Under the pieces are notes generated by a model. The model saw only the letters and a program-made list of their open reading frames with translations, was not told the DNA's origin and did no database searches. A stretch of DNA of 64,000 nt, taken from the IMG/VR virus record IMGVR_UViG_2848385391_000003. The stretch is one strand, 5' to 3'. Within the stretch, counting starts at the first letter, position 1. Every line of letters starts with the position of its first letter. Below, piece by piece: positions 19,488 to 34,860 of the stretch. A program made the translations under genes and the position numbers. The stretch is from a virus (lineage: Duplodnaviria > Caudoviricetes).

Positions 19488-19913
19488 ATGACCGACACCT
19501 TTGACAGGGCCACACTCGTTTCAGAGCTTAAACGCGATGAAGGCGAGCGCTTGAAACCCTACTTCGATACCGTCGGCAAAATCACCATCGGCGTCGGGCG
19601 CAATTTGACGGATGGGGGCATCTCTCAAAGCGAATCCGAGATCCTTTTGCATAACGATATTGCACGAACGCTTAGATGGCTGGATCGGAATTTACCCTGG
19701 TGGCGCACGCTAGATACAGTGCGGCAACGTGTGCTCATCCATATGGCCTTTAACCTGGGCGGCAATCTTCTGACCTTTGTTCATACTCTAGATGCCATGC
19801 AACGCAACGACTACGCAGCCGCGGCTAACGGCATGCTCGCATCCAAATGGGCGAATCAGGTCGGCCAACGAGCACGGCGCCTAGCTAATATGATGCGCAC
19901 CGGAAAAATTTAA
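19488..19913 (+). CDS. Endolysin (T4-lysozyme/GH24-like)
   Basis: DEG....Y.DT.G..TIGVG.NL, MAFNLG, SKWA.QV..RA. Confidence 0.9.
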   Translation: MTDTFDRATLVSELKRDEGERLKPYFDTVGKITIGVGRNLTDGGISQSESEILLHNDIARTLRWLDRNLPWWRTLDTVRQRVLIHMAFNLGGNLLTFVHTLDAMQRNDYAAAANGMLASKWANQVGQRARRLANMMRTGKI

Positions 19914-19929
19914 CTCTCAACATCAAAAA

Positions 19930-20220
19930 ATGAATCTTCACGAACATGACCGAATGCTTGCCATATTGGCTGCGATGGGTGCTGTGCTTGGGATTGGTAA
20001 ATTGCTCAATGGCGGCGAGAAAATTACCGCTCGGCTGATTATCGGGCGCATGATTGTGGGTGCGGGCTTAAGCGTCGCCGCCAGCTCCACCCTCATGCTT
20101 CTGCCTGAACTTTCTCCGATCGCTGTCACAGGCCTCGGCGCAGCACTCGGCATTCTCGGCCAGTCCTATTTGGAAATGGCTGTACAACGCTGGTTTGGGA
20201 AACGCTCAAATGCTAACTAA
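19930..20220 (+). CDS. Holin
   Basis: 96 aa, about 3 hydrophobic segments, basic C-terminus, in lysis cassette. Confidence 0.8.
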   Translation: MNLHEHDRMLAILAAMGAVLGIGKLLNGGEKITARLIIGRMIVGAGLSVAASSTLMLLPELSPIAVTGLGAALGILGQSYLEMAVQRWFGKRSNAN

Positions 20221-20734
20221 TTGGCTTGCCGGTCCGTCGCGCCTATTGTGCGTCGCAGCAACCGCTTTCAGTTTTGGCGTAGGGTGCGCGGGTTTTTTGT
20301 ATTACAACCCACGCATTCAGAAAGAACGCTCAGCGCTAGTGCACTATAAAGCTCAACTCACCATGGCCCAAGCTCAATTGATTGAAGCCCAAACCAAAGT
20401 CATCATCCAAACCGAAATTCAATACCGCGACCGCATCAAAATCGTCAAAGAAAAAGGCGACACGATTATTAAGGAAGTGCCCATCTATGTTAATCAAGCT
20501 GATACTGACCATTTCGGCGTTAACGTTGGCTTCGTGCGCCACCACAACGCAGCCTTTGCCAACGAGTCTGCCGGACCTGCCGCCCACTTTGACCGAGAAC
20601 CCGCCGGAATTTCGCTTGCTGAGATTGCCGAAGTCAACGCTTTTAACGCCAACGTCTGCTGGCAATGGCGGGAACAAGCGCTTAGATTAAGAGCATTTTA
20701 CCGGCAGTTACAGCATATACACTCTATGCCATAA
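20210..20734 (+). CDS. Inner-membrane spanin (Rz-like)
   Basis: N-terminal TM, coiled coil, IIKEVP.YV motif; contains an embedded lipoprotein ORF. Confidence 0.75.
   Translation: MLTNWLAGPSRLLCVAATAFSFGVGCAGFLYYNPRIQKERSALVHYKAQLTMAQAQLIEAQTKVIIQTEIQYRDRIKIVKEKGDTIIKEVPIYVNQADTDHFGVNVGFVRHHNAAFANESAGPAAHFDREPAGISLAEIAEVNAFNANVCWQWREQALRLRAFYRQLQHIHSMP
20487..20690 (+). CDS. Embedded outer-membrane spanin lipoprotein (Rz1-like)
   Basis: +1 frame in Rz; MLIKLILTISALTLASC lipobox, Pro-rich mature part; AAGGA upstream. Confidence 0.75.
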   Translation: MLIKLILTISALTLASCATTTQPLPTSLPDLPPTLTENPPEFRLLRLPKSTLLTPTSAGNGGNKRLD

Positions 20735-20930
20735 CGCGCTATACTGAGATCCAGCGATCCGACCTATTTTTCTATCGGCGATTGAAACTCTACCAGCGAG
20801 CCTCACAACGCCTCATACTCGGCAATTAGAACCCTGTAGGCAGATCGCTTAGCTCATTACAGCACGCGCTTACGCTCTTCCTTACCTAAACGCTCCTGCT
20901 CTGTACCAGCATAACTTGCGCTTATCAAAT

Positions 20931-23900
20931 TTACGCTAACACAGCACCTCGCTGCTTTAACAGCTTACCATTCATTTCGCTTAACCCTTCCACTCCTTCT
21001 ATTAACGCTCCTCTCACTGTCAAAAAATTATGACCCGTACTCCACCTGAAATACGCCTTATATTTCCCCTCTTCTTTTCGCAATTCCCATTGCCGAACAG
21101 AGTTATCTAGACTACCTATCCCTAAATAGTGAATACCCGATGCCTCTTTCCAGGCAAGGCTTGCAATCGGTCCACTATCTTCAATCAGTATTTGGCACTC
21201 TCCCGTTTGGGGGTCCCACAGCCGCACCGTAGTGTCAGAACTCCCCGACGCTACCTGATCTCCTCTCGGCGAATACGCTACGCTAAAAACTCTATCTGTA
21301 TGCCCTTCTAACTTCTGCTTCTGCTCTCCGCTTTCTATATCCCACAGCCGCACCGTCTTATCTACACTCCCCGACGCGACCTGATCTCCTCTCGGCGAAT
21401 ACGCTACGCTATAAACTCTATCTGTATGCCCTTCTAACTTCTGCTTCTGCTCTCCGCTTTCTATATCCCACAGCCGTACCGTCTTATCTTCACTCCCCGA
21501 CGCGACCTGATCTCCTCTCGGCGAATACGCTACGCTCAAAACTCTATCTGTATGCCCTTCTAAATTCTGCTTCTGCTCTCCGCTTTCTATATCCCACAGC
21601 CGTACCGTATTGTCTTCACTCCCAGACGCGACCTGATCTCCTCTCGGCGAATACGCTACGCTATAAACTCTATCTGTGTGCCCTTCTAAATTCTGCTTCT
21701 GCTCTCCGCTTTCTATATCCCACAGCCGCACCGTATTGTCCCAACTACCCGACGCTACCTGATCTCCTCTCGGCGAATACGCTACGCTAAAAACTATATC
21801 TGTATGCCCTTCTAACTTCTGCTTCTGCTCTCCGCTTTCTATATCCCACAGCCGTACCGTATTGTCTTCACTCCCAGACGCTACCTGATCTCCTCTCGGC
21901 GAATACACTACGCTCAAAACTCTATCTGTGTGCCCTTCTAAATTCTGCTTCTGCTCTCCGCTTTCTATATCCCACAGCCGCACCGTATTGTCCAAACTCC
22001 CCGACGCTACCTGATCTCCTCTCGGCGAATACACTACGCTCAAAACTATATCTGTATGCCCTTCTAACTTCTGCTTCTGCTCTCCGCTTTCTATATCCCA
22101 CAGCCGCACCGTATTGTCCAAACTCCCCGAAGCGACCTGATCTCCTCTCGGCGAATACGCTACGCTAAAAACTACATCTGTATGCCCTTCTAACTTCTGC
22201 TTCTGCTCTCCGCTTTCTATATCCCACAGCCTTACCGTATTGTCAGAACTCCCCGACGCTACCTGATCTCCTCTCGGCGAATACGCTACGCTCACAACTC
22301 CATTTGTATGCCCTTCTAACTTCTGCTTCTGCTCTCCGCTTTCTATATCCCACAGCCGCACCGTATTATCTTGACTCCCCGACGCTAACTGATCTCCTCT
22401 CGGCGAATACGCTACGCTAAAAACTATATCTGTATGCCCTTCTAATTTCTGCTTCTGCTCTCCGCTTTCTATATCCCACAGCCGCACCGTAGTGTCAGAA
22501 CTCCCAGACGCTACTTGATCTCCTCTCGGCGAATACGCTACGCTCACAACTCCATTTGTATGCCCTTCTAAATTCTGCTTCTGCTCTCCGCTTTCTATAT
22601 CCCACAGCCGCACCGTAGTGTCTAAACTCCCCGACGCTACCTGATCTCCTCTCGGCGAATACGCTACGCTAAAAACTACATTTGTATGCCCTTCTAAAGT
22701 ACGGAGTTTTTCCCAATTCGAGGTCCCGTACACGCTAATCTTACCGTTTTCAAGCCCTATGGCACAGGTTTTCCCATCGGGTGAATACACACAAGAATAT
22801 ACTTTGCTCTCTCCTTGGATATAGGGCCATTCACCAAACTGCGCCCCTTCCATTTTTGCCTCGCTTAAATTCGCCTGGCGTAACCAACTTTTGCGTAAAT
22901 TCACCTTCCTTAAATCTGCCCCTTGCAGTTCAGCAGAATCAAATAACCCATAGCTCAAATCCGCTCCAGGTATCCGGATTCTATTTAAATCCCACCCAGT
23001 AAACGGCACCCCTGCTTTCACCAAGATCGTCATCGCATTCGCCGCACCCCGACTCACAAAATCTGTCTGCGTTGAGCCTTTGAGCCAGACCAGCAGGGGT
23101 TTCACCAGCGCTTTGTTCTGTTGCACACGCTCCACTAAAAACCGCTGAACCCCTGCATCCTCCACCAGATTAAATCGGTTCAATAATCCTTCCGGATTTA
23201 CCTGATCCGAGTCATTCAGCGTTTTCCAGAGCGCCTGGACATTCCTCATTCCGCTCGAGGATTCGCATGCGCCCCCTCCTGCCGCCTCTTCCAGTTCTTG
23301 CCACATCCCACGCGCCACCAGATAATCCTGAATCGATTTATGGATAAACCGATATTGATCTCCTTGGCGAATTAACGGCGCATTAAACCGCAACAGCCGC
23401 GTCTTTTCTTCTGCGTCCCCTAAATACTGCGCTCGCCAACCCCCTTTTTTTCCATCCTTCGCTTCTGAATACGTGACCGACACCAACTGCTCTTCATACA
23501 TCGCTAACGCCAGATTTTGACTATACTCCAAGCCGTGCAGTGTAAATTCATCATCCAGATCCTCAAACGCTTCCTGCTCCTTAGGTTTGAGTGGGATGCG
23601 CGCCAACCTTTCCTGTGATCGGTTGAACCAATTTTCCACGGACCTCTCATATAACCCCATACGCGTCAGCTTCGAGTGCTCTTCCTCCGCTTTTAGGCTC
23701 GGCAACACCTCTAACGTCATTTTCAACATAAACGGCGTGCGCACTAATTCTTTTAACTCTGCGATTTCTTTAAATAACTGTTTGTAATCCTCTGCTTTCC
23801 ACTTCGGTTTCGTATAACTCACATATTGATCAATATAGTGCTCTATCGATGCATCCGAAAACGACGACAACCGATATTCTTCCAATGCGCCAGGTCTGCC

Positions 23901-25994
23901 TATTGGATGAAACTTATTTTGATAATGATCTCCTAAATATTCCGGCCGGCTGCTGATAATCACTTTCGCTTGCCAACGCTCTAGTTTATTATCCGCATAG
24001 AAGGCGCGTGAACGTTGCGCTATTTCGTCATACCCATCCAGAATAAAAATAAACCGACCACCTTTACGTAAATTTTCTATCTCGGGTTTCGATAAACCTT
24101 GTTCTTCCAGATATTGTTCGATCAAATTTCTGCCAGGGTTCTCTAGCGTAGCCAATGATATGAATAACGGGATTGGCCTGTCTTGGGTATTTTCCGCTTG
24201 GATATAGTCTTTCCATAACCGACGTGCCATGTGACGATTAAATGTTGACTTACCGCTCCCCCCTTCACCTAACAGCAATAAGACTTTTTTATCCGAATCC
24301 AAAAACGCATTGACCTTCTCTTCTAAATCAAAATGTTCTGTCGCCTCCGCTGTGAGCTTACCTTGCGGTGCAACATACATCGCCAAACCATCCTGGATTT
24401 CTCCAAGCTCTTCCCAGTCCTTGAAATATTCTGCCTGGATACTTTCACCTAAAATCGCAAGTGGCTCTTTCTTCGATTTCAGTTCTTTTTCTTGCTGATG
24501 CTTCAATTGTTGATGGAGTTGCTGCACGGTAAGGGCAAGCTCGTTGTGTAACGCTTTCCGTATATCATCGAAAATACTGTCTACGAGTTGGGTAAACTCA
24601 AGCCCATCAAACTTTGAATCGGTCTTCAAATGCGAAATACAATCACTGTACCCCTGCCAAAACTTATTCAGAAACGTTTGGGCTTCGTCACTACCCGCTA
24701 ACAGCCGCTCGATCAGCTTAAAGAGCACCCCATGCCGACTTTGATTCGCATACACTTCTCGCCCTGCTTGCACTTGTTCTTCAAAGCGCGGTATGTCTTC
24801 CATCCGAACCGCTGTCGCTGAAACAAAATCTGACAAGCACGCATCGTAGCTATTCAAGGTTAACGCAACCGGAATAATCCCATGCTTATCTTTAAGCTCT
24901 TCTGCTCGGATTTGCAAAAATGCCATTTCTGTCAATACATGATGGAACCCGGCCTTATAGCTTTCCTCTTGCGAGAATTCTCTGACCACCTCACGTATCG
25001 CCATCGCGCTATCTTGCTCACTATCTTTCAGATACGCTTCTCGATCTTTGCGATACGCCTCTCGCAGTTTCTGATAAAAGTGGCCATAATCCGACCACTT
25101 TAGATAACTTCCCAATACCTCAGAACAACACACCGTGACCTTATCGACCGGGGTCACATCGCCTCGCAACCGCCCCGGTAATAGACACAGCTGATTGGTT
25201 AAAATATCTTCTAGCTTGCCGTCCTTTTTCAGATCTCTCGAAACACTTGAATACGGTTGCCCCATCGGCGTTTGATCCGAATACAAAATCACTTGAATTT
25301 GAGAGAGCTTTTCAATTAAATATTTAGAGGTAGAGGCCTCAGCCTTTCCGTGGGCTGGATTGTCATGCGCATATACTAAAAACAGGCTGGGTTTATTCGC
25401 GACCTTTAAGGCTCCCAGCGTCGACAGCGCCTTTTCAAACAGGTAATCCATCTGCTTGCTTTTTTCTTCGATAGACACATCAACCTCTCGTTGCGGAGGC
25501 GTTAGACTCAGTTTTGAAGGCCGCGCATTTGCAACCCACTCTTTTGTTGGATCCAGTTGTTTTCTATTCCCCTCGCTCACACTCTCATTTTTAATTAAAA
25601 ATGAGCTGTACCGTGCGCTTATTTGTTGATGCAACATTCGCGCGCCAGTTTGCTTCATATCCATATAAGGCGCGTACTCTAACGCCTTTTTATAATTCTC
25701 CTCAGCGCCGAATTTATCGTCTTTGCGTAGAAAAGTGCCATAGTAAAAATGGCTTGCGGCAAGTTGCTCTCTTATTTTTCTTAAGTCAGACTCATTTTGA
25801 GTGCTTTGCAGCACGTCTTCTGCTTTGCGAATGCCTCCTTCAAAGCAGTCCTTTGCTTTCTCTAGATCTCCTTGCTTCTCATAGCGCGTTGCTTCCTCTC
25901 GAAGCTTATTAGCTGCTGACAAGCCAGAAACTGAAATGGGTGTCGTATTAACCTCTCTACTCCCAATCCCCCTCAATGCATTCAAATTAAACAT
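20931..25994 (-). CDS. NLR-like STAND protein: TPR-like N-terminus, possible TIR/SEFIR-like domain, NACHT, pentapeptide repeats, ~14 WD40 repeats
   Basis: Walker A GEGGSGKS, Walker B FIFILDGYDE, RFIHKSIQDY, GADLS/GADLR/QANLS pentapeptides, GH...WD repeats. Confidence 0.9.
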   Translation of the reverse strand: MFNLNALRGIGSREVNTTPISVSGLSAANKLREEATRYEKQGDLEKAKDCFEGGIRKAEDVLQSTQNESDLRKIREQLAASHFYYGTFLRKDDKFGAEENYKKALEYAPYMDMKQTGARMLHQQISARYSSFLIKNESVSEGNRKQLDPTKEWVANARPSKLSLTPPQREVDVSIEEKSKQMDYLFEKALSTLGALKVANKPSLFLVYAHDNPAHGKAEASTSKYLIEKLSQIQVILYSDQTPMGQPYSSVSRDLKKDGKLEDILTNQLCLLPGRLRGDVTPVDKVTVCCSEVLGSYLKWSDYGHFYQKLREAYRKDREAYLKDSEQDSAMAIREVVREFSQEESYKAGFHHVLTEMAFLQIRAEELKDKHGIIPVALTLNSYDACLSDFVSATAVRMEDIPRFEEQVQAGREVYANQSRHGVLFKLIERLLAGSDEAQTFLNKFWQGYSDCISHLKTDSKFDGLEFTQLVDSIFDDIRKALHNELALTVQQLHQQLKHQQEKELKSKKEPLAILGESIQAEYFKDWEELGEIQDGLAMYVAPQGKLTAEATEHFDLEEKVNAFLDSDKKVLLLLGEGGSGKSTFNRHMARRLWKDYIQAENTQDRPIPLFISLATLENPGRNLIEQYLEEQGLSKPEIENLRKGGRFIFILDGYDEIAQRSRAFYADNKLERWQAKVIISSRPEYLGDHYQNKFHPIGRPGALEEYRLSSFSDASIEHYIDQYVSYTKPKWKAEDYKQLFKEIAELKELVRTPFMLKMTLEVLPSLKAEEEHSKLTRMGLYERSVENWFNRSQERLARIPLKPKEQEAFEDLDDEFTLHGLEYSQNLALAMYEEQLVSVTYSEAKDGKKGGWRAQYLGDAEEKTRLLRFNAPLIRQGDQYRFIHKSIQDYLVARGMWQELEEAAGGGACESSSGMRNVQALWKTLNDSDQVNPEGLLNRFNLVEDAGVQRFLVERVQQNKALVKPLLVWLKGSTQTDFVSRGAANAMTILVKAGVPFTGWDLNRIRIPGADLSYGLFDSAELQGADLRKVNLRKSWLRQANLSEAKMEGAQFGEWPYIQGESKVYSCVYSPDGKTCAIGLENGKISVYGTSNWEKLRTLEGHTNVVFSVAYSPRGDQVASGSLDTTVRLWDIESGEQKQNLEGHTNGVVSVAYSPRGDQVASGSSDTTVRLWDIESGEQKQKLEGHTDIVFSVAYSPRGDQLASGSQDNTVRLWDIESGEQKQKLEGHTNGVVSVAYSPRGDQVASGSSDNTVRLWDIESGEQKQKLEGHTDVVFSVAYSPRGDQVASGSLDNTVRLWDIESGEQKQKLEGHTDIVLSVVYSPRGDQVASGSLDNTVRLWDIESGEQKQNLEGHTDRVLSVVYSPRGDQVASGSEDNTVRLWDIESGEQKQKLEGHTDIVFSVAYSPRGDQVASGSWDNTVRLWDIESGEQKQNLEGHTDRVYSVAYSPRGDQVASGSEDNTVRLWDIESGEQKQNLEGHTDRVLSVAYSPRGDQVASGSEDKTVRLWDIESGEQKQKLEGHTDRVYSVAYSPRGDQVASGSVDKTVRLWDIESGEQKQKLEGHTDRVFSVAYSPRGDQVASGSSDTTVRLWDPQTGECQILIEDSGPIASLAWKEASGIHYLGIGSLDNSVRQWELRKEEGKYKAYFRWSTGHNFLTVRGALIEGVEGLSEMNGKLLKQRGAVLA
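21186..22697 (-). repeat. 12 near-identical 126-bp tandem WD40-coding repeats
   Basis: Unit LEGHTxxVxSVAYSPRGDQVASGSxDxTVRLWDIESGEQKQ(K/N) counted 12 times. Confidence 0.95.
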
Positions 25995-26947: not shown

Positions 26948-29602
26948 CTATATTGCGCCTCGTTGTCTTAACAAAGCAGCATTTTGAGAGCTGAGATTAA
27001 GGGCATTTTGGATGAGGGCACCTGATGCAGTAAGCCCGTCTTGTCGTGAAGTCCAATCTAACAAAATTGGACCTATTTCACCTGAGCGATAAGGGACTTG
27101 CCAAAGACGAATAGTTTTGTCCTCTCCTGCCGTAGCCAATAGGGCCACTTCATCCTGTGTGGGTTTCCACACAATAGTACTAATACCACCCACACAGCCT
27201 TTGAGTACCGCTTGACAATCGCCTGTTAAAACAGACCATAACCTGATTGTTTGATCCCTACTTCCAGACGCGAGCCAATGACCATCTTTTGAGAACGCGA
27301 CACAATTCACACTATCCGTATGCCCAGTATAGGTGTGAGCCAGAGCGCGCTCCCCCCTCATGTGCCACAGCTTCACCGTACCATCATCACAAATAGACGC
27401 GAGCCAATGACCATCGTTTGAGAATGCGACACGATACACACCATCGTCATGCCCGACGTAGGAGTAAGCCATAGCTTGTTCACCAACCACGTGCCACAGC
27501 TTCACTGTATTATCCCCACTTCCAGATGCAAGCCACTGTCCATCGTTTGAGAATGCGACACTGCTGACAATATCGGTATGCCCGATATAAGAGTGAGCCA
27601 AGGTACGCTCGCCCCCTGCGCACCACAGCTTTACCGAATTATCTGAACTTCCAGATGCAAGCCACTGCCCATCTTTTGAGAACGCGACACAATTCACACT
27701 ATCCGTATGCCCAGTATAGGTGTGAGCCAGAGTGCGCTCCCCGTCCATGCGCCATAACTTCACCGTCTTATCCCTGCCTCCAGACGCGAGCCACTGACCA
27801 TCGCTTGAGAACACAGCACTAATCACCATATCCGTATGTCCGGTATAGGTGTGAGCCAGAGTGCGCTCTCGGTCCACGCACCATAACTTTACCGTCTTAT
27901 CCCAACCCACAGACGCGAGCCACTGACCATCGCTTGAGAACGCAGCACTATTCACCATATCATCATGCTCAACATAGGAGAAGGGCATAACCTGTTCACC
28001 GGTCACGCGCCACAGCTTCACCGAATTATCTAAACTTCCAGATGCAAGCCACTGACCATCGCTTGAGAACGTGACACTATTCACCCTATCCGTATGCCCA
28101 GTATAGGTGTGAGCCAGAGTGCGCTCACCTTCCACGTGCCACAACTTTACCGTAGTCCTACCTCCAGATGCCAACCATTGCCCATCGTTTGAGAATGCGA
28201 CACTATTCACTCCATGTGGATGCCCAATATAAGTGTGAGCCAGAGTGCGCTCACCCTCCACGTGCCATAAATTCACTGTATGACCATTTCCATGTGGAGG
28301 CCATTGCCAATCGTTTGTTCCAGATGCGAGCCATTGCCCATCTTTTGAGAATGCAACACTGTATACCTTGTTCTTATGTTCGGTATAGGAGTGGGCCAAG
28401 GCACGTTCGCCTGCTACGTGCCACAGCTTCACCGTCTTATCATCGCTACCAGATGCGAGCCAATGGCTATCATTTGAGAATGCGACACTTGTCACCATAC
28501 TCATATGCCCGGTATAGGTGTGAGCCAGAGTGCGGTCGCCCTCTACACACCACAGCTTCACTGTACAATCCCCACCTCCTCCAGATACTAGCCACTGACC
28601 ATCGTTTGAGAATGCTACACTTGTCACCACACCCGTATGCGTATAGGAGTGGGCTAGCGCGCGTTCGCCCTCCACGCACCACATCTTTACCGTCTTATCC
28701 CCACTTCCAGACGCGAGCCGCTGTCCATCACTTGAGAATGCGACACTATACACATAGCTCGTATGCCCTTCATAAGTATGAATTTTTTGGAAATTCTTTG
28801 TTTCATAAAGATGGATAGCATTGCCTTCTGTCACAGCCAGCCAGCGCCCAACTGGCGAATAACAACACGCATAAACAGCGCTTTCCATTTCTAAAGAGGG
28901 CTTTTCACCAAAATCTACTCCTGCTAAATCAGCACCATCTAAATTAACACCATTCAGCCAAGTATCGGTCCAATTTACGCCTGTTAAATCGGCTCCTTGA
29001 AATTGCGTAGAATCAAACACTCCATAACTTAAATCTGCCCCAGGCACACGTATCCCTTGGAGATCCTTATTATTGAATTGCGCCCCTGCCTTCACTAATA
29101 GCGTCAGCGCGTTAGCTGCTGTAGCCTGCACCTCTTCTGTTTTGGACCGTTCCACCCAGTTCAATAATTTCTCTTTTAGCGAAATGTCTTGCTGGACTTT
29201 TTCTTGCAAAAATTTAAGTATTTCTGGATCATTAACAAGACATATCAGCCCAAAAAGTGCAGATTTCTCAACGACCTGATCGAGTCGCCCTGAGTCAGAT
29301 AACTTTTGCAATTGACTCAATGTGAATTTCTTTAACTCTACATCCGAACTTATTAGAGCTCCTTGATATTGCGCCTGAATCCTTTCTTTGATCAGATGTA
29401 GCTTCAGAGCAGGTGAATCCATGGGTTCACCATTATGAGTCGGTGTTGTCAGTGCTTTAAGCAAAGCCTGACGGCTCGAAAAATCGAGCAGCTTTTCTAT
29501 TTCTTGCCGAATTTCTGCGGGAAGCGAGAGAAAACCGGATTCTGTGGATTTTTGTGTTACTGGATAGTGCAGATTGACAGAGCTTGAAATAGGGTTCAGC
29601 AT
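26948..29602 (-). CDS. F-box-like / pentapeptide / ~14 WD40 repeat protein (putative host-directed effector)
   Basis: FLSLPAEIRQEIEKLL F-box-like motif, GADLS/GADLT/GADLA repeats, 43-aa WD40 units; ATG 29602 (MLNPISSS) preferred to TTG 29620. Confidence 0.82.
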   Translation of the reverse strand: MLNPISSSVNLHYPVTQKSTESGFLSLPAEIRQEIEKLLDFSSRQALLKALTTPTHNGEPMDSPALKLHLIKERIQAQYQGALISSDVELKKFTLSQLQKLSDSGRLDQVVEKSALFGLICLVNDPEILKFLQEKVQQDISLKEKLLNWVERSKTEEVQATAANALTLLVKAGAQFNNKDLQGIRVPGADLSYGVFDSTQFQGADLTGVNWTDTWLNGVNLDGADLAGVDFGEKPSLEMESAVYACCYSPVGRWLAVTEGNAIHLYETKNFQKIHTYEGHTSYVYSVAFSSDGQRLASGSGDKTVKMWCVEGERALAHSYTHTGVVTSVAFSNDGQWLVSGGGGDCTVKLWCVEGDRTLAHTYTGHMSMVTSVAFSNDSHWLASGSDDKTVKLWHVAGERALAHSYTEHKNKVYSVAFSKDGQWLASGTNDWQWPPHGNGHTVNLWHVEGERTLAHTYIGHPHGVNSVAFSNDGQWLASGGRTTVKLWHVEGERTLAHTYTGHTDRVNSVTFSSDGQWLASGSLDNSVKLWRVTGEQVMPFSYVEHDDMVNSAAFSSDGQWLASVGWDKTVKLWCVDRERTLAHTYTGHTDMVISAVFSSDGQWLASGGRDKTVKLWRMDGERTLAHTYTGHTDSVNCVAFSKDGQWLASGSSDNSVKLWCAGGERTLAHSYIGHTDIVSSVAFSNDGQWLASGSGDNTVKLWHVVGEQAMAYSYVGHDDGVYRVAFSNDGHWLASICDDGTVKLWHMRGERALAHTYTGHTDSVNCVAFSKDGHWLASGSRDQTIRLWSVLTGDCQAVLKGCVGGISTIVWKPTQDEVALLATAGEDKTIRLWQVPYRSGEIGPILLDWTSRQDGLTASGALIQNALNLSSQNAALLRQRGAI
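27236..28780 (-). repeat. 12 diverged ~129-bp WD40-coding repeats
   Basis: For example GAGCCAGAGTGCGCTC at 27724 and 27853 (129-bp period). Confidence 0.88.
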
Positions 29603-29742
29603 AAATATTTTATTGTTCAATTAAAGTAAAATCATCTGATGAATTTTCATAAGCCCTGACCCAGGACTTATTCATGACTCACCCATGTGAGTCGCCAGAT
29701 TTTACAGAAAAAATACAAATTAATTAAACCCGCCAGCTTCTA

Positions 29743-30813
29743 TCATTTCGTCGGCTCTACTTTCTCGCCTCGACGATTGCGCACATAGTGTTCCGTCATC
29801 TTGATGCTTGTATGCCCCAACTGCTTTTGCGCTCGACGAATATCCCCCGATAACTCCGCCTTGTCTGTTCCCGCTTTCGCTCGTAAGTCTCGAAATTGAT
29901 ATTCCGCTGCGCATAAGCCTGCCGCTGTGCGCGCTTGCGCAAACATCGCTTGCAGCGTCTTTAACGCAACGCACTCTCCTAACTCATTCACCACCAAATC
30001 AACATGCCCTGTGTTGTACTTGGCTTTTCTCTTTAATATGCGCTCTAACGTCTTCTCCAGATGACCGGTGATCGCTATCCTCAGTTTCGTCTTCGTCTTG
30101 TTTTGCTGCACCAGCAGACACCCTTCTTTGATATCCTGCTCTGTCATCTTTAAAATATCCGATGGGCGCTGACCCGTCAGATACGCTAAATCCATCGCAT
30201 CCCGCAACGGTTGCCGTGCTTTCGCATAAATCGCGCTATATTCACTGTCTTCGATATAGACTTTACGCCCGTCTTCTCGATAGCCCTTGATCCCCAAACA
30301 CGGATTCGGCTGATCCGTATACCCCCATTCTCTTGCCTTATTCCAGATGTGCGAGAATAACGACTTCTCTCGATTCGCTCTGACCTGCCCTTCGCTCCCA
30401 TTGACGGCCTGACCTGCCTCTTTCAGTTTTCTGACAGTCTCTTTCACGCGCCAATCTAAAAACTGACGGATATGGATCGGCTTGATCTCGTCCATTAATG
30501 CCGGCGGATTATCAAAGAATTCCAGCAATTTAACCAGCTCCGCCAAATTGTCTTTCTGCGTGCGAGGCGCTTTTGTTGGGATCACGTCTTGTCTATATCT
30601 TTGTGCTGCATGACGAAACGTTACCCTGACTCGATCCTCCAATTGGTTTTGACTATCCAGCTCTGTCCACTTTTGCAGCGCTTCTAGATAATCTGGCCCC
30701 AGCGCGATCTCCTGTCTCGAGGAATGGCCCGTGTCGTAGTAATAATAGGTTTGCCCGCTACGCTGTACCCTCGCTCGCATCCGAGGCGGTAAATTAAACG
30801 CGGTTTGGCTCAT
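29743..30813 (-). CDS. int: Tyrosine integrase
   Basis: LTGQRPSD, FRDLRAK, LGH...MTEHY catalytic motifs; points toward att. Confidence 0.95.
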   Translation of the reverse strand: MSQTAFNLPPRMRARVQRSGQTYYYYDTGHSSRQEIALGPDYLEALQKWTELDSQNQLEDRVRVTFRHAAQRYRQDVIPTKAPRTQKDNLAELVKLLEFFDNPPALMDEIKPIHIRQFLDWRVKETVRKLKEAGQAVNGSEGQVRANREKSLFSHIWNKAREWGYTDQPNPCLGIKGYREDGRKVYIEDSEYSAIYAKARQPLRDAMDLAYLTGQRPSDILKMTEQDIKEGCLLVQQNKTKTKLRIAITGHLEKTLERILKRKAKYNTGHVDLVVNELGECVALKTLQAMFAQARTAAGLCAAEYQFRDLRAKAGTDKAELSGDIRRAQKQLGHTSIKMTEHYVRNRRGEKVEPTK

Positions 30814-32451: not shown

Positions 32452-33953
32452 CTCAGGATTACCCACAAATTTTAGTCACACTGGTGCATGATTTGAAACA
32501 TTTTGGTGGCCTCATGCAAAGCCATGAACCCACGCCACAATACAGTAGGGCCGGGCGGGAGATCATGCTTGCGCGCTAGGTATCCGCCGAGTTTAGCGAT
32601 CCACAGAATGGCCTGATTCAAAGTAGGAGGATCGCTAGGAGGATGCTTGGTATTGTGAGCACGGCAATATAAAGCTTGCCATTCAATGGGCTGAAGTAAA
32701 ACTTCACAAGAGATTTCAGGATTACTTCGACCTAGTAAGGTGGCATACAAAATACGCCAAGCGATGACCGTAAATAATGCAGTAGAGCGGACAAAGCGAT
32801 CTAAGCTACCCAACTGACGATGTTCAATTTGGCAGCCGCTTTTGAGGATACGATGCCAAGTTTCGATAGTCCAACGGCGCGCATACCACGTGAGTCTTTC
32901 CAATGCTTGTTCTTGGGTATGCGTTGGCACTGAACTTAATAGCATCCACTCGATTGGATGAGTCCCTTCAGGTGGATGGCTTTCCAATGCCCAAATCGCA
33001 AACACCTCGACATTAGGCAGATTAGGATTAGGATGATTGCACGGCCGGCGAAGCGTAACGGGCGCGCATTTTATAGCCAGCTGAGCGATGCGCTGTGCAC
33101 AGTTGCTACGAGCAGGCACGTTAAGTTCTATACAGCCTAATTCGGAAGCAGATGCCATAGCTTCCCACAAGTATTGATCAGGATGATCCACTTTGCGATT
33201 CCAAGAGGCACGAATTAACCAATCGACTCCATCTGGACGCGGTGCAACAAATAAGTCGTAAATATCTGCCTCGCGATCACACACGCTAATCATGTGCGTT
33301 TTAGGGCATCCAGCTTTGAGAGCCGTCAATTGCTTTACGCCCTCGAGCCACTTTACGCTTTCTTTTTCATCAATCGACCTCTTAGCGCGCTGTTTCTTTT
33401 TGCCCAGCTCACTCAGATCGCGTGCCCACGCTTTCATCCCCAGTACGCCTAGCGGCAATCCTTCCGGGGTCACTGCCAACATACTGTGCATCATGAATCC
33501 ACGTACATGTTTGCTGCTGCAATAACCCAGACCTTCCGTGGCCGGTAGATGCGTTAAATTAAATTCTGTCGTGTCTTGCACCGCCAACACAACTGGCACT
33601 TGATTCATTCGGTTTTGTGTCTGAGCTATATGCGAGCCCAACACCCCATCTGTATCGACCTGCTTGTTGTCGAAGAATCGATACGCTGATTTTAACTGCG
33701 CCTTCGTCAGTGTGTGAGGAAATGAACCATGCGGCATCTTCGATAACTGTTCCGCCAATAATATCAGCCGTTTCGTCAGCCGCGCATCTCCTAAGTGGGC
33801 TTCGCTAAATTCAGTATTCGCCCAACTCTCCAAATCACTTTCAGCCACCATTGCTTTGCCTTTTTAGCAGGTAAAACTGCAATGTTTGTACAGGATACAA
33901 TTATTTACAACTTCTCTAGCGATTCTTCCGACAAATTTGTGGGTAATCCTGAG
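32452..33953 (-). mobile_element. IS4-family (IS50/Tn5-like) insertion sequence, 1502 bp
   Basis: Terminal IRs CTCAGGATTACCCACAAATT / AATTTGTGGGTAATCCTGAG; direct repeat CACCATATAG at 32442-32451 and 33954-33963 (8 bp if the IR is extended by one base). Confidence 0.93.
32472..33851 (-). CDS. IS4-family DDE transposase
   Basis: LGDARL..RL, QDTT, DREAD, YARRWTIE..HRILKSG (YREK), PG...LWRG. Confidence 0.95.
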   Translation of the reverse strand: MVAESDLESWANTEFSEAHLGDARLTKRLILLAEQLSKMPHGSFPHTLTKAQLKSAYRFFDNKQVDTDGVLGSHIAQTQNRMNQVPVVLAVQDTTEFNLTHLPATEGLGYCSSKHVRGFMMHSMLAVTPEGLPLGVLGMKAWARDLSELGKKKQRAKRSIDEKESVKWLEGVKQLTALKAGCPKTHMISVCDREADIYDLFVAPRPDGVDWLIRASWNRKVDHPDQYLWEAMASASELGCIELNVPARSNCAQRIAQLAIKCAPVTLRRPCNHPNPNLPNVEVFAIWALESHPPEGTHPIEWMLLSSVPTHTQEQALERLTWYARRWTIETWHRILKSGCQIEHRQLGSLDRFVRSTALFTVIAWRILYATLLGRSNPEISCEVLLQPIEWQALYCRAHNTKHPPSDPPTLNQAILWIAKLGGYLARKHDLPPGPTVLWRGFMALHEATKMFQIMHQCD

Positions 33954-34860
33954 CACCATATAGAGGCTCAAAGCCACCATCCCCACCGAGGCCAACGACT
34001 CCATCAAAGCGGCGGGTGTTGAATCGGTGGGCCGGCTTTTTAAATGCCCTGCGGACAGCTTTTGACCTAGTTGGCTCAGGTCCGAGTTAAGCTGCCCAAG
34101 TCGATGCAGCATCCCAGCACATGCCACCGCCGTCAGATTCCCCAGCACGATTGGCGGCATCACCTGTGCAAATAATTCTGGCTGGGACGTGTGTAAAATC
34201 GCCGCATAGCCCAGAGTCAGCGGAATCGCCCCCTCACCCAGGCCACCCGCCATGATCGGAATCACGATAAAGAAGAAGGTGTGGTGTGCGCTTAGTCCCA
34301 ACGCCATCCCCGTCAGGGTGCCGACGATTGCCGCAGCGATAGAACCCGCAGCAAGCGGCACAAAGAGTCTCACGAAACCTTTAATCAAAAGACTCCGCTC
34401 CATACTCAAAATACCGCCTACCACCACCGTGACCGTAAACAGGTACAAAATATTCGTGCTCTCCCAAAACGCTCTGATCGAGCTTTCCAGCTCTATCGGC
34501 ATGAGTTCGCTATGCACCCAATACGACGGCAGCAGCACGGTCACCATCACGGGACCACCCAAGTACCGCAGAACCGGTATATGTTTGCCGATCTCTGCGC
34601 AGCTAAAACCTAATACCGCCACCACCGCCAACATCACCGAGAGGTCTCCTGGCACCTCACCTAACGCGATAAAACTCAGAATGCATAACCAAATCAGCCC
34701 AAATACCGGCAACGGAATCATCCCGATATGAACCTTCTCCGGTTTTTGCCGACTTACTCGGCTGGGTACTGCACTCAGCCAGCTGCTTAAACGTTTGGCA
34801 TAATGAAATAGGGTTTGCATGATTCAGCCTCCAAGTGCTCATCGAGCCTGTGTGACAGCT

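What the first reader, a model, noticed from the sequence alone, without database searches (positions are those of the whole stretch)
21186..22697. Bacterial NLR with fungal HNWD-style hypervariable WD40 array
Seen: 12 repeats of 126 bp are nearly identical even at silent sites, yet vary at a few codons: GHT-[N/D]-[V/G/I/R]-V-[F/V/L/Y] and SGS-[L/S/Q/E/W/V]-D-[T/N/K]. Established: in Podospora HET-E/HET-D (HNWD) NLRs the equivalent positions (about 10-12, 14, 30, 32 of the 42-aa unit) form the ligand-binding face and diversify by concerted evolution and repeat shuffling. Inference: a recombination-driven variable receptor in a prophage, acting either in anti-phage sensing or in binding/mimicking fungal immune proteins.
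Basis: partly seen in the sequence, partly recalled or inferred. Interest (0 to 1): 0.75.

Follow-up and report, generated by a model that had tools for sequence, protein, structure and literature searches.

The report
Bacterial NLR with hypervariable WD40 sensor
This is an intact bacterial immune-receptor-like gene (TIR-like domain, NACHT ATPase, WD40 propeller) whose 12 near-identical repeats differ almost only at the predicted ligand-contact residues, one of about 75 such genes filling 12% of a small fungus-dwelling bacterium's genome and sitting at the end of a prophage.

Summary
Window 21186-22697 holds 12 in-frame 126-bp WD40 units (TRF 92% matches) inside one intact 1687-aa minus-strand ORF (20931-25994). 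Amino-acid variation sits at unit codons 6, 7, 9, 25 and 27. Codons 7/9/25/27 are the four that Paoletti 2007 found under positive selection in Podospora HET-E/NWD, and 7/9/25 fit the published R1-2/R1/D-1 WD40 top-face hotspot rule.

At these codons dN is 0.53, against dS 0.15 and dN 0.008 at the other codons. A 97%-identical paralogue has replaced 42 of its 60 such residues.

The protein reads TPR-like helices, a TIR/SEFIR-fold domain (pLDDT 91; Z up to 10.6), NACHT, pentapeptide repeats, then about 14 WD40 blades. The genome carries 75 NACHT genes (12.0% of its bases). Twenty-nine other arrays vary at the same five positions, and WD similarity between genes is uncorrelated with NACHT similarity, so repeats are exchanged.

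The gene lies convergently 196 bp beyond a myovirus-like prophage's lysis cassette, a linkage that recurs in this genome and in congeners.

The NACHT-pentapeptide-WD40 family in Mycoavidus and repetitive bacterial WD40s with variable hotspots are both in print, so this is a new member of a known kind. Its function (anti-phage sensing versus host interaction) is untested.

The parts
20931..25994 (-). Whole NLR/STAND gene, 1687 aa, intact reading frame
   Evidence: ORF list and translation. Gene-body dN/dS against its 97% paralogue is 0.32.
25584..25931 (-). N-terminal helical, TPR-like bundle (residues 22-137)
   Evidence: AlphaFold2 model m4bb1e35cebcf gives five helices with block pLDDT about 78-95. 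There is a sub-threshold TPR_2 hit at residues 31-53. In the own genome it is shared only with the twin and weakly with one other ORF.
24495..25469 (-). Conserved effector-type domain (residues 176-500). Its core, about residues 200-435 (window 24690-25397), has a TIR/SEFIR-like fold.
   Evidence: No Pfam family at E<=1. 248 representative homologues at E<=0.001, many of them stand-alone proteins of about 300 aa. AF2 model m499c3499200e has pLDDT 91.4 and pTM 0.89. In the VIA-align search of 48,161 chains the top 12 are all TIR or SEFIR domains, Z 8.4-10.6. Foldseek gives no hit at E<=0.001, with SPARTA TIR chains on top. Invariant residues are Y208, D240, S291 and E356.
23817..24284 (-). NACHT NTPase domain (residues 571-726), with Walker A GEGGSGKST (576-584) and Walker B-like FILDGYDE (650-657)
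   Evidence: Pfam PF05729, E 1.2e-10, 41.9 bits against cut-off 26.7. Motifs located.
22836..23009 (-). Pentapeptide-repeat spacer (about residues 996-1053) between the NACHT module and the propellers
   Evidence: Pfam PF00805, E 1.8e-6, 27.8 bits against cut-off 20.2. NCBIfam Alr5209-type pentapeptide hit below its cut-off.
22698..22823 (-). Degenerate first WD40 blade (residues 1058-1099)
   Evidence: Translation. It lies within the WD40 Pfam matches.
21186..22697 (-). Twelve highly conserved 42-aa WD40 units, hypervariable at unit codons 6, 7, 9, 25 and 27
20934..21185 (-). Degenerate last blade and C-terminal tail (residues 1604-1687)
   Evidence: Translation. 77 identical residues with the twin's tail, which is 54 aa longer.
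19488..20734 (+). End of the prophage late operon: endolysin-like ORF 19488-19913, small ORF 19930-20220, and last ORF 20195-20734 (phrog_4952). Homology between phage copies ends near 20715.
   Evidence: PHROGs and blastn of the window against its genome.
26948..29620 (-). Neighbouring 890-aa pentapeptide-WD40 protein without a NACHT domain, upstream on the same strand
   Evidence: Pfam. It is one of 14 such ORFs in the genome.
29743..30813 (-). Tyrosine integrase of the next prophage
   Evidence: Pfam Phage_integrase, E 1.3e-20. About 95% identical copies follow other NLR genes in the genome.

Best explanation
The gene encodes a cytoplasmic STAND/NLR-type receptor of an endofungal betaproteobacterium. 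Sources name its closest homologues Mycoavidus or 'Glomeribacter'. The domain order is a TPR-like helical bundle, a TIR/SEFIR-fold effector-type domain, a NACHT ATPase, a pentapeptide-repeat spacer, and about 14 WD40 blades, enough for two seven-bladed propellers.

Shown here: twelve blades are kept about 90% identical in DNA. Five positions per blade (60 residues in all) are diversified far faster than silent sites. Three of the five match the published sequence rule for WD40 top-face contact hotspots. WD repeats are exchanged within genes and between the roughly 75 paralogues, because repeat similarity does not track NACHT similarity. Together this gives 313 different five-residue blade signatures among 329 units.

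Inferred: the variable faces bind a protein ligand. Binding releases NACHT-driven oligomerisation, which brings the TIR-like domains together. These then signal or consume a nucleotide such as NAD+, stopping the cell.

Inferred from position only: the ligands are most likely proteins of phages or other invading elements. The gene occupies the accessory slot between a prophage's lysis cassette and the next integrase, and that linkage recurs across the genome and the genus. On this reading it would serve superinfection immunity or competition between the sibling prophages.
For: Architecture.

Hypervariable sites within the gene: the five codons have dN 0.53. The other codons 1-33 have dN 0.008 and dS 0.153. 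That is a ratio of 3.4 against neighbouring silent sites.

A test not chosen on this gene: of 31 arrays with at least 8 conserved units, the 29 other than this gene and its twin have their five highest entropies at positions 25, 7, 9, 6 and 27 (1.8-2.4 bits). The next highest is 0.93.

Recent paralogue: residues 1-1099 are 97.1% identical (dS 0.043). In the array, 42 of 60 hypervariable residues differ against 22 of 444 others (Fisher p 8e-31). Hypervariable dN is 0.50 against array dS 0.11. None of the 12 units keeps its signature.

Top-face assignment: PMC3419727 rule and PMC1805685.

Concerted evolution and exchange: within-array identity is 0.857 against 0.745 between arrays, and 248 of 329 units have their nearest unit in the same array. 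Over 465 gene pairs, WD nucleotide identity against NACHT amino-acid identity gives Spearman rho 0.002. One pair has 84.9% WD identity with 34% NACHT identity.

Phage linkage: at least 5 copies of the 20-kb late module, at about 90% identity. The last phage ORF's 3' piece occurs at 27 places. At 18 of them a convergent NLR or WD40 gene lies within 400 bp. In five congeners, 11 of 23 such loci have convergent WD40 units within the held flank of about 0.9-3 kb, and none has co-directional units.
Against: No ligand, activity, expression or phenotype is shown. No RNA run was listed for the gene.

The TIR-like assignment rests on fold alone. No TIR, SEFIR or HET Pfam hit appeared at E<=1. Foldseek found no match at E<=0.001. 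Z values of 8-10 are only moderately above what unrelated models reach, by the tool's own note. The protein-atlas score was 0.83, which is weak. I could not place a catalytic residue.

PADLOC gave no antiviral STAND model, only a WD-region hit and one hit at E 0.0065. None of 50,697 deposited phage records encodes a relative of the NACHT module.

Six of the 27 phage-end fragments have no WD40 gene within 400 bp, and 3 neighbours are co-directional. 12 of 23 loci in congeners have none. Many of these fragments may be copies made by tandem duplication of an NLR cassette, so they are not independent.

No att repeat was found.

A family filling 12% of a reduced genome, restricted to fungal endosymbionts and shared with their hosts, fits a host-directed role as well.

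Part of the excess dN comes from shuffling of pre-existing variants rather than new mutation: array dS is 0.11 against 0.043 in the gene body.
Confidence: 0.6

Rival explanations
1. Host-directed role. The NLR-like proteins act on or within the fungal host, for example as decoys, mimics or regulators of the homologous Mortierellaceae NLRs. Alternatively they sense fungal molecules inside the bacterium to regulate the symbiosis.
For: With this query the family was found only in fungal endosymbiont genomes: 5 of 5 congeners and 2 of 19 other genera of the same family searched, and in none of 16 genomes of other families of the order. Proteins named from Mortierellaceae fungi are homologous at 34-59% identity. 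Two papers report the shared NACHT-pentapeptide-WD40 architecture and shared N-terminal domains, and suggest gene transfer between the partners (bioRxiv 10.1101/2021.12.02.471044 and 10.1101/2022.03.16.484565, passages). The family is very large for a 2.8-Mb genome, at 12.0% of its bases.
Against: There is no hydrophobic signal sequence at the N-terminus; other export routes were not testable. The gene sits in a prophage accessory position. 10 of the 13 fungus-named NACHT modules form their own long-branched clade, not close partners of this gene. The 13 fungus-named homologues checked lack the high internal repeat conservation, at 0.28-0.66 aa identity. STAND proteins normally act in the cell that makes them (established knowledge, not tested here).
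Confidence: 0.2
2. Self/non-self discrimination between co-resident bacterial strains, or defence against injected effectors. This would be a bacterial analogue of fungal heterokaryon incompatibility, not defence against phages.
For: The evolutionary regime matches that of the Podospora allorecognition genes het-d and het-e. The domain order is TIR-related, then NACHT, then WD40.
Against: No polymorphic partner gene was identified, and there are no strain-level data. The prophage linkage points to mobile elements.
Confidence: 0.1
3. A recently amplified propeller without adaptive diversification: the variable sites are simply unconstrained surface positions.
For: Highly repetitive WD40 proteins formed by young duplications are common in bacteria; about half of the 305 'HR' WD40 proteins are bacterial (PMC5587647, passages). 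The best solved match is such a protein, 2YMU, E 8e-181.
Against: Relaxed constraint cannot give dN above dS, yet the hypervariable dN is 3.4 to 4.5 times the array's dS and 11.6 times the gene body's dS. The same five positions vary in 29 other arrays, whose NACHT modules match this gene's at only about 41-72% aa identity. 31 of the 44 arrays with at least 10 copies have about 12 copies, which argues for maintained homogenisation rather than one-off amplifications.
Confidence: 0.04
4. Targeted mutagenesis by a diversity-generating retroelement or a similar enzyme produces the variable codons.
For: The genome has 7 RVT_1 matches, five of them in open frames of 444-600 aa, and some lie within about 10 kb of NLR genes. 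Retroelement-diversified putative sensors exist in other bacteria (PMC10907252, search listing only).
Against: There is no reverse transcriptase in the window. The variable codons show no adenine-specific pattern: codon 7 is GTA, GGA, ATA or AGA, with its third-position A never changed. Sixty variable codons spread over 1.5 kb in 12 units do not fit a single template repeat. I did not classify the reverse transcriptases.
Confidence: 0.02

Closest known systems
Podospora anserina HNWD/NWD genes (het-e, het-d, het-r): HET-NACHT-WD40 NLRs
   Same: NACHT plus a C-terminal array of 42-aa WD40 units that are 80-100% identical within a gene. Strong variation at codons 7, 9, 25 and 27 flanking conserved 8 and 26. 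Exchange of repeats within and between paralogues. About 10-12 conserved units plus cryptic blades, predicted to form a double propeller (PMC1805685; PMC12222747; here). The N-terminal domain is TIR-related in both; for HET that is stated in PMC4986451.
   Different: Bacterial, not fungal. No Pfam HET hit at E<=1. A pentapeptide-repeat spacer sits between NACHT and WD40. A fifth variable position (codon 6). Repeat number looks constrained, at about 12 in 31 of 44 arrays, whereas HNWD alleles vary in length. Repeat-induced point mutation (RIP), proposed as a mutation source in Podospora, is described there as fungus-specific (PMC1805685). Prophage-linked. Ligand and phenotype unknown.
NACHT-pentapeptide-WD40 NLRs reported in Mycoavidus cysteinexigens and Mortierellomycota
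   Same: Same architecture and same organisms, judged by the names sources give to the homologues. Published as shared between endosymbiont and host with 45-50% identity (bioRxiv 10.1101/2021.12.02.471044, passage). [quoted passage not shown] I found both: the TIR-like fold and ARM_5.
   Different: The passages I read do not describe the internal repeat conservation, the hypervariable positions, the repeat exchange, the size of the family or the prophage linkage.
Highly repetitive prokaryotic WD40 proteins (for example PDB 2YMU)
   Same: Bacterial proteins with many near-identical WD40 blades. Predicted hotspot positions are noted as the diverse ones (PMC5587647, passage). 2YMU is the best solved sequence match, E 8e-181, and in the printed alignment its units vary at the position equivalent to codon 9.
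   Different: That work interprets them as young duplications and reports no NLR family, no between-gene exchange and no selection test at those sites in the passages I read.
Bacterial antiviral STAND NTPases (Avs, bNACHT)
   Same: A STAND NTPase with an N-terminal effector and a C-terminal repeat sensor, found in or near mobile elements. I recall their published mechanism as sensing of phage proteins followed by oligomerisation. The papers appeared only in reference lists I saw.
   Different: No PADLOC antiviral STAND model matched. Those sensors are not known to me to carry concerted, hypervariable repeat arrays. No anti-phage phenotype is known for this family.

Membership tests
NACHT-type STAND NTPase / NLR architecture | NACHT domain above the curated threshold | tested here: met
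   PF05729, residues 571-726, E 1.2e-10, 41.9 bits against cut-off 26.7.
NACHT-type STAND NTPase / NLR architecture | Intact Walker A and Walker B motifs | tested here: met
   GEGGSGKST at 576-584 and FILDGYDE at 650-657. The motif definitions are recalled.
NACHT-type STAND NTPase / NLR architecture | Tripartite layout: N-terminal effector-type domain, central NTPase, C-terminal repeats | tested here: met
Podospora HNWD (HET-NACHT-WD40) | N-terminal HET domain (Pfam PF06985) | tested here: not met
   No HET hit among the 17 families listed at E<=1 for residues 1-1055. Only a TIR/SEFIR-like fold was found.
Podospora HNWD (HET-NACHT-WD40) | WD40 units at least 80% identical within the gene | tested here: met
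   90.5% nt and 86.9% aa mean pairwise identity.
Podospora HNWD (HET-NACHT-WD40) | Diversifying selection at codons 7, 9, 25 and 27 of the unit | tested here: met
   against PMC1805685. My test is a counting method without correction for recombination.
Podospora HNWD (HET-NACHT-WD40) | Concerted evolution within and between family members | tested here: met
Podospora HNWD (HET-NACHT-WD40) | Allelic polymorphism in repeat number and order | not testable with these tools
   The contigs of 4 runs break in the array. The only comparison available is the within-genome twin, which also has 12 units but entirely different signatures.
TIR / SEFIR domain | Match to a TIR, TIR_2 or SEFIR sequence profile | tested here: not met
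   None at E<=1 in Pfam. 8 of 10 distant homologues had no Pfam family at all.
TIR / SEFIR domain | TIR-type flavodoxin-like fold | tested here: met
   The top 12 of 48,161 chains are all TIR or SEFIR. ACT1 SEFIR: Z 10.6, 158 aa aligned, rmsd 4.9. SARM1 TIR: Z 9.5, 131 of 140 aa, rmsd 2.7. Prokaryotic SEFIR: Z 8.9, 138 of 144 aa. Foldseek is weak, best E 0.07.
TIR / SEFIR domain | Catalytic glutamate in the position of TIR NADases | tested here: inconclusive
   E356 is invariant in 71 sequences and a Ser-Glu pair follows strand 3. The tools give no residue-level superposition.
Known anti-phage defence systems (PADLOC-DB 2.0) | Match to an antiviral STAND or other defence model | tested here: inconclusive
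   Only HEAT-ARM_XIII over the WD40 region, and PDC-M16A at E 0.0065. The library dates from 2023.
Diversity-generating retroelement target | Nearby reverse transcriptase and template repeat; adenine-specific variation | tested here: not met
   No RVT_1 match inside the window's coordinates and no adenine-specific pattern. I ran no template-repeat search beyond the TRF and repeat analyses.

The most novel reading that the evidence does not exclude
The roughly 75 NLR genes are a phage-delivered library of intracellular receptors, diversified by recombination. Each temperate phage of this lineage carries one or more NLR cassettes at its right end to exclude rival phages. As phages decay, the cassettes accumulate and swap WD40 blades among themselves. 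This gives a bacterium a combinatorial repertoire (313 blade signatures) built like the fungal HET-E system. The same lineage of genes is related to the NLR repertoire of the Mortierellaceae hosts by inter-kingdom transfer; the direction is not resolved here.
Probability: 0.25. Interest if true: 0.8.

Novelty: new member of a known kind. Interest (0 to 1): 0.6.

Why it matters
What fungal NLRs with highly conserved, hypervariable repeats recognise is a long-standing open question, answered for only a handful of het genes.

Here the same evolutionary device operates in a bacterium with a 2.8-Mb genome. It sits next to candidate ligand sources, the sibling prophages. It also comes with a natural experiment: two paralogues that are 97% identical everywhere except at the 60 predicted contact residues.

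That makes ligand specificity, NACHT-dependent activation and the activity of the TIR-like domain testable by ordinary expression assays.

It also bears on two other matters. One is how a vertically inherited endosymbiont can afford to spend 12% of its genome on receptors. The other is the origin of NLR repertoires in early-diverging fungi.

Tried and rejected
1. Diversity-generating retroelement: rejected (see rivals).

2. Attachment sites. I searched for shared words of 11 or more bases between the phage right-end junctions and the integrase-side junctions of three prophage units. Only homology within one kind of junction turned up, and no att core. A consensus scan of 20600-21000 found no terminator and one weak promoter-like site.

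3. Strain polymorphism of the array. I laid four runs (X1, X2, X3, X14), all as contigs, and all break inside the array. No RNA holder was listed. Neither says anything about expression or polymorphism.

4. First fold of residues 1-545 with 29 sequences. Residues 176-500 were poorly predicted, with mean pLDDT 62. I replaced it with a 71-sequence alignment of that domain alone.

5. phmmer of the N-terminus against solved structures found nothing meaningful; the best E was 0.0029, on a coiled stretch.

6. The Foldseek PDB search had no hit at E<=0.001.

7. Phage database: no relative of the NACHT module, only pentapeptide matches in 3 Ralstonia phage records. The portal protein is at most 39% identical to any record.

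8. Direction of fungus-bacterium transfer. The FastTree of 120 NACHT modules is unrooted and has long branches meeting, so no direction can be read. Three fungus-named rows sit inside bacterial clades on short branches and may be endosymbiont DNA in fungal assemblies.

11. One literature search was badly posed and gave mostly irrelevant rows.

12. Searches for prior description of the hypervariability or the prophage linkage in Mycoavidus found none. A Mycoavidus genome paper reports 11 prophage regions covering 11.5% of the chromosome, and does not contain the words WD40, NACHT or repeat in its main text (PMC5877345, passages). Supplements were closed.
Full report
**1. The observation**

Tandem Repeats Finder reports a single array at window 21214-22697: period 126, 11.8 copies, 92% matches, no indels, score 2457. 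It lies in one intact minus-strand ORF, 20931-25994, 1687 aa. In frame it is twelve 42-aa WD40 units at exact 42-residue spacing, residues 1100-1603, window 22697-21186.

In the register L1-E-G-H-T they are:
- codon 6: N/D
- codon 7: V/G/I/R
- codon 9: F/V/L/Y
- codon 25: L/S/Q/E/W/V
- codon 27: T/N/K

Minor variation occurs at codons 12, 20 and 42, and the last unit diverges after codon 33.

The statement that silent sites are nearly identical is too strong. Ten codons carry silent variants. Synonymous divergence among units is 0.15. Mean pairwise identity is 90.5% in DNA and 86.9% in protein.

**2. Selection on the variable codons**

I used Nei-Gojobori counting over all pairs of units.

| Codons | dN | dS | dN/dS |
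|---|---|---|---|
| 6, 7, 9, 25, 27 | 0.53 | - | - |
| Other codons 1-33 | 0.008 | 0.153 | 0.05 |

Replacement change at the five codons therefore runs 3.4 times faster than neighbouring silent change.

Because these codons were picked on this gene, I looked for tests not chosen on it.

(a) Other arrays. In the genome, 31 arrays have at least 8 units that are at least 75% identical. Leaving out this gene and its twin, the five highest within-array entropies fall on positions 25, 7, 9, 6 and 27 (1.8-2.4 bits). The sixth is 0.93.

(b) The twin. A paralogue 93 kb away (genome 1871648-1876873) is 97.1% identical over residues 1-1099, with dS 0.043 and dN 0.014. In its array 42 of the 60 hypervariable residues differ, against 22 of 444 others (Fisher p 8e-31). 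Hypervariable dN is 0.50 against array dS 0.11. None of the 12 positional units keeps its signature, and both genes have 12 units.

The raised array dS (0.11 against 0.043) shows that part of the change is import or shuffling of existing units, not new mutation.

**3. Where the variable residues lie**

I did not fold the propeller.

The published sequence rule of Wu et al. 2012 (PMC3419727, passages) defines the top-face contact hotspots of a WD40 blade as follows:
- R1 is the residue enclosed by the two bulky residues at the start of strand a.
- R1-2 is two residues before R1.

In the unit ...H4-T-x6-x7-V8-x9-S-V11...S-G-S-x25-D26-x27-T... these are codons 9, 7 and 25.

Paoletti et al. 2007 (PMC1805685, passages) report, for the 69 WD units of the Podospora NWD family, strong positive selection at codons 7, 9, 25 and 27. 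These flank conserved codons 8 and 26 and lie in the d-a loop and the b-c turn on top of the propeller. The numbers and the spacing are the same here.

Later work uses a shifted numbering, positions 10, 11, 12, 14, 30, 32 and 39 (PMC12222747, passage). An offset of 5 reconciles the two; this is my inference.

**4. The rest of the protein**

Pfam finds NACHT at residues 571-726 (41.9 bits against cut-off 26.7) and pentapeptide repeats at 1021-1053 (27.8 bits against 20.2). Walker A and B motifs are intact. One degenerate blade precedes the twelve conserved blades and one follows them. That gives about 14 blades, the count of two seven-bladed propellers. The best solved sequence match is the repetitive propeller protein 2YMU, E 8e-181.

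The N-terminal 545 residues have no Pfam or NCBIfam family. A first model gave a confident helical, TPR-like bundle for residues 22-137 and a poor model for the rest.

An exhaustive HMMER search with residues 176-500 found 248 representative homologues at E<=0.001. Many are stand-alone proteins of about 300 aa, and one carries the domain in front of NB-ARC and TPR. With 71 of them aligned, AlphaFold2 gave pLDDT 91.4 and pTM 0.89.

- Foldseek found no PDB match at E<=0.001. Its best rows are TIR chains of SPARTA, E 0.07-0.5.
- The exhaustive VIA-align search put TIR or SEFIR domains in all of the first 12 places, Z 8.4-10.6. Examples are SARM1 TIR with 131 of 140 residues at 2.7 Å, and a prokaryotic SEFIR domain with 138 of 144 at 3.0 Å.
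- The protein-language-model atlas pointed the same way, weakly, at score 0.83.

I conclude that the fold is TIR/SEFIR-like with helical insertions. Membership of the TIR sequence families is not met, and enzymatic competence is open. The invariant residues are Y208, D240, S291 and E356.

The fungal HET domain is regarded as TIR-related (PMC4986451, passage). The architecture therefore parallels HET-NACHT-WD40 without being a member of it.

**5. The family**

In the 2,795,004-bp single-contig genome G000, a blastp census of 1303 ORFs of at least 250 aa found:
- 75 ORFs with the NACHT module, of which 71 also have pentapeptide and WD40 parts
- 14 pentapeptide-WD40 proteins without NACHT, one of them the upstream neighbour at 26948-29620

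The NACHT ORFs sum to 336,765 bp, 12.0% of the genome. Tandem arrays total 111.7 kb. Of 44 arrays with period 126 and at least 10 copies, 31 have about 12 copies, 8 about 13, 3 about 11, one about 14 and one about 19. This gene's array is the most homogeneous.

N-terminal parts fall into classes:
- 33 of 74 have none.
- 11 ORFs carry the TIR-like domain, including one TIR-like-NACHT-HEAT protein.
- 5 of 7 other representatives carry Pfam ARM_5.

Evidence on how the arrays evolve:
- Units are more alike within arrays (0.857) than between arrays (0.745).
- 248 of 329 units have their nearest unit in their own array.
- In 9 of 31 arrays another gene's units are as close as the array's own.
- Over 465 gene pairs, WD nucleotide identity is uncorrelated with NACHT-pentapeptide amino-acid identity (rho 0.002, p 0.97). 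One pair has 84.9% WD identity with 34% NACHT identity.

That is the signature of concerted evolution within genes plus exchange between genes. The 329 units carry 313 different five-residue signatures.

Domains are also reshuffled at a larger scale. The N-terminus of this gene is 96.7% identical to that of a protein from a related genome whose NACHT region is only 61% identical. Contigs of two runs follow the gene at 97% identity from its start only as far as window 24171.

**6. Distribution**

The closest named homologues come from Mycoavidus strains and 'Glomeribacter sp.', and from Mortierellaceae fungi at 34-59% identity.

Among 40 relatives searched with the NACHT-pentapeptide region:
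- Two of 19 other genera of the same family have it.
- None of the 16 genomes of other families of the order has it.

In a quick, unrooted FastTree of 120 modules, 10 of 13 fungus-named rows plus one unnamed row form one long-branched clade. Three sit inside bacterial clades. Paralogues of G000 interleave with those of other strains. No direction of transfer can be read from it.

The 13 fungus-named proteins checked have low internal repeat identity, 0.28-0.66. Short-read assemblies may have collapsed such arrays.

**7. Genomic setting**

Window 155-20711 and window 43410-63960 are two copies of one myovirus-like late module. It carries terminase, portal, major head, sheath, tape measure, baseplate, tail fibre, endolysin and a final ORF of phrog_4952. 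The two copies are about 85-91% identical. At least three further copies lie elsewhere in the genome.

The NLR gene is convergent with this operon. Its stop codon is 196 bp from the operon's last stop. Going on from the NLR come the 890-aa pentapeptide-WD40 gene, the integrase of the next prophage (29743-30813), an IS4/Tn5-type transposase, early genes, and then the second late module. The same order, late module then NLR(s) then integrase, recurs along this part of the chromosome.

The 3' piece of the last phage ORF occurs at 27 places in the genome:
- At 18 a convergent NLR or WD40 ORF lies within 400 bp.
- At 3 a co-directional one does.
- At 6 none does.

In five congeners, 11 of 23 such loci have convergent WD40 units within the held flank of about 0.9-3 kb, and none has co-directional units. 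Many short fragments may have spread by duplication of NLR cassettes, so these counts are not independent events.

I found no att repeats. Phage cargo, integration hot spot and co-duplication therefore remain open.

No deposited phage encodes a related NACHT module.

**8. Mechanism**

Shown:
- the architecture
- intact NTPase motifs
- purifying selection on the body of the gene (dN/dS 0.32)
- diversification at predicted contact residues
- repeat exchange
- the prophage-end position

Inferred from what is established for STAND/NLR proteins: a ligand binds the variable propeller faces, NACHT-driven oligomerisation follows, and the TIR-like domains are activated by proximity, leading to growth arrest or death.

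Inferred from position only: the ligands come from phages or other invaders. The host-directed alternative is not excluded.

**9. What is known already**

These are in print:
- the NACHT-pentapeptide-WD40 architecture shared by Mycoavidus and Mortierellomycota
- the occurrence of fungal NLR N-terminal domains in M. cysteinexigens NACHT-WD40 and NACHT-HEAT proteins
- highly repetitive bacterial WD40 proteins with diverse hotspot positions
- the conjecture that bacterial NLR repeats might diversify as fungal ones do (bioRxiv 10.1101/2020.01.06.895854, passage)

My searches found no description of:
- the HET-E-type site pattern in this family
- the decoupling of WD and NACHT histories
- the size of the family
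- the prophage-end linkage

Supplements were closed and may hold relevant lists.

**Verdict:** a real feature that is well explained in kind, a new member of a known kind, with an unusually testable setting.

Noticed in passing
window 155-20711 and 43410-63960: Two copies of the same roughly 20-kb myovirus-like late module lie in one window, about 85-91% identical in pieces (91.4% over 15.8 kb). At least three more copies lie elsewhere in the genome. They look like a chain of tandem prophages separated by NLR genes and integrases.
   Followed up: partly
window 20195-20734 and 27 places in G000: The last 130-360 bp of the final phage ORF (phrog_4952) recurs next to the 3' ends of NLR or WD40 genes, often as a short remnant with no phage beside it. 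The short remnants share a common flank on the other side, which may be the upstream region of the next NLR gene.
   Followed up: partly
window 32472-33851: An IS4/Tn5-type transposase gene has a 100% identical copy elsewhere in the genome (1523043-1524545). It is inserted in the early region of the second prophage, next to a 318-aa fragment of a 2-hydroxycarboxylate transporter at 33864-34820.
   Followed up: no
window 26948-29620: An 890-aa protein has pentapeptide repeats and about 13 WD40 units but no NACHT domain. It is one of 14 such ORFs, and its repeats have low internal conservation.
   Followed up: partly
window 24171-25994 and protein P0012: Domain mosaic. The N-terminal 540 residues are 96.7% identical to a protein of a related genome whose NACHT region is only 61% identical. 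Contigs of runs X2 and X3 follow the window at 97% only as far as 24171.
   Followed up: partly
G000:C1:31314-36830, 167138-172315, 651708-655718: Three large ORFs carry HEAT-type 33-aa (99-bp) repeat arrays that are also highly conserved internally, with a few variable positions. One of them was scanned and is TIR-like-NACHT-HEAT.
   Followed up: partly
G000:C1:1270334-1276141: A 1935-aa ORF has 23.6 copies of a 108-bp (36-aa) Ala/Thr-rich unit at 93% identity. I did not look at its family.
   Followed up: no
G000:C1:14193, 154272, 1065656, 1336189, 1684475: Five full-length RVT_1 reverse-transcriptase open frames (444-600 aa) are present. Several lie within about 10 kb of NLR or WD40 genes. 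I did not classify them.
   Followed up: no
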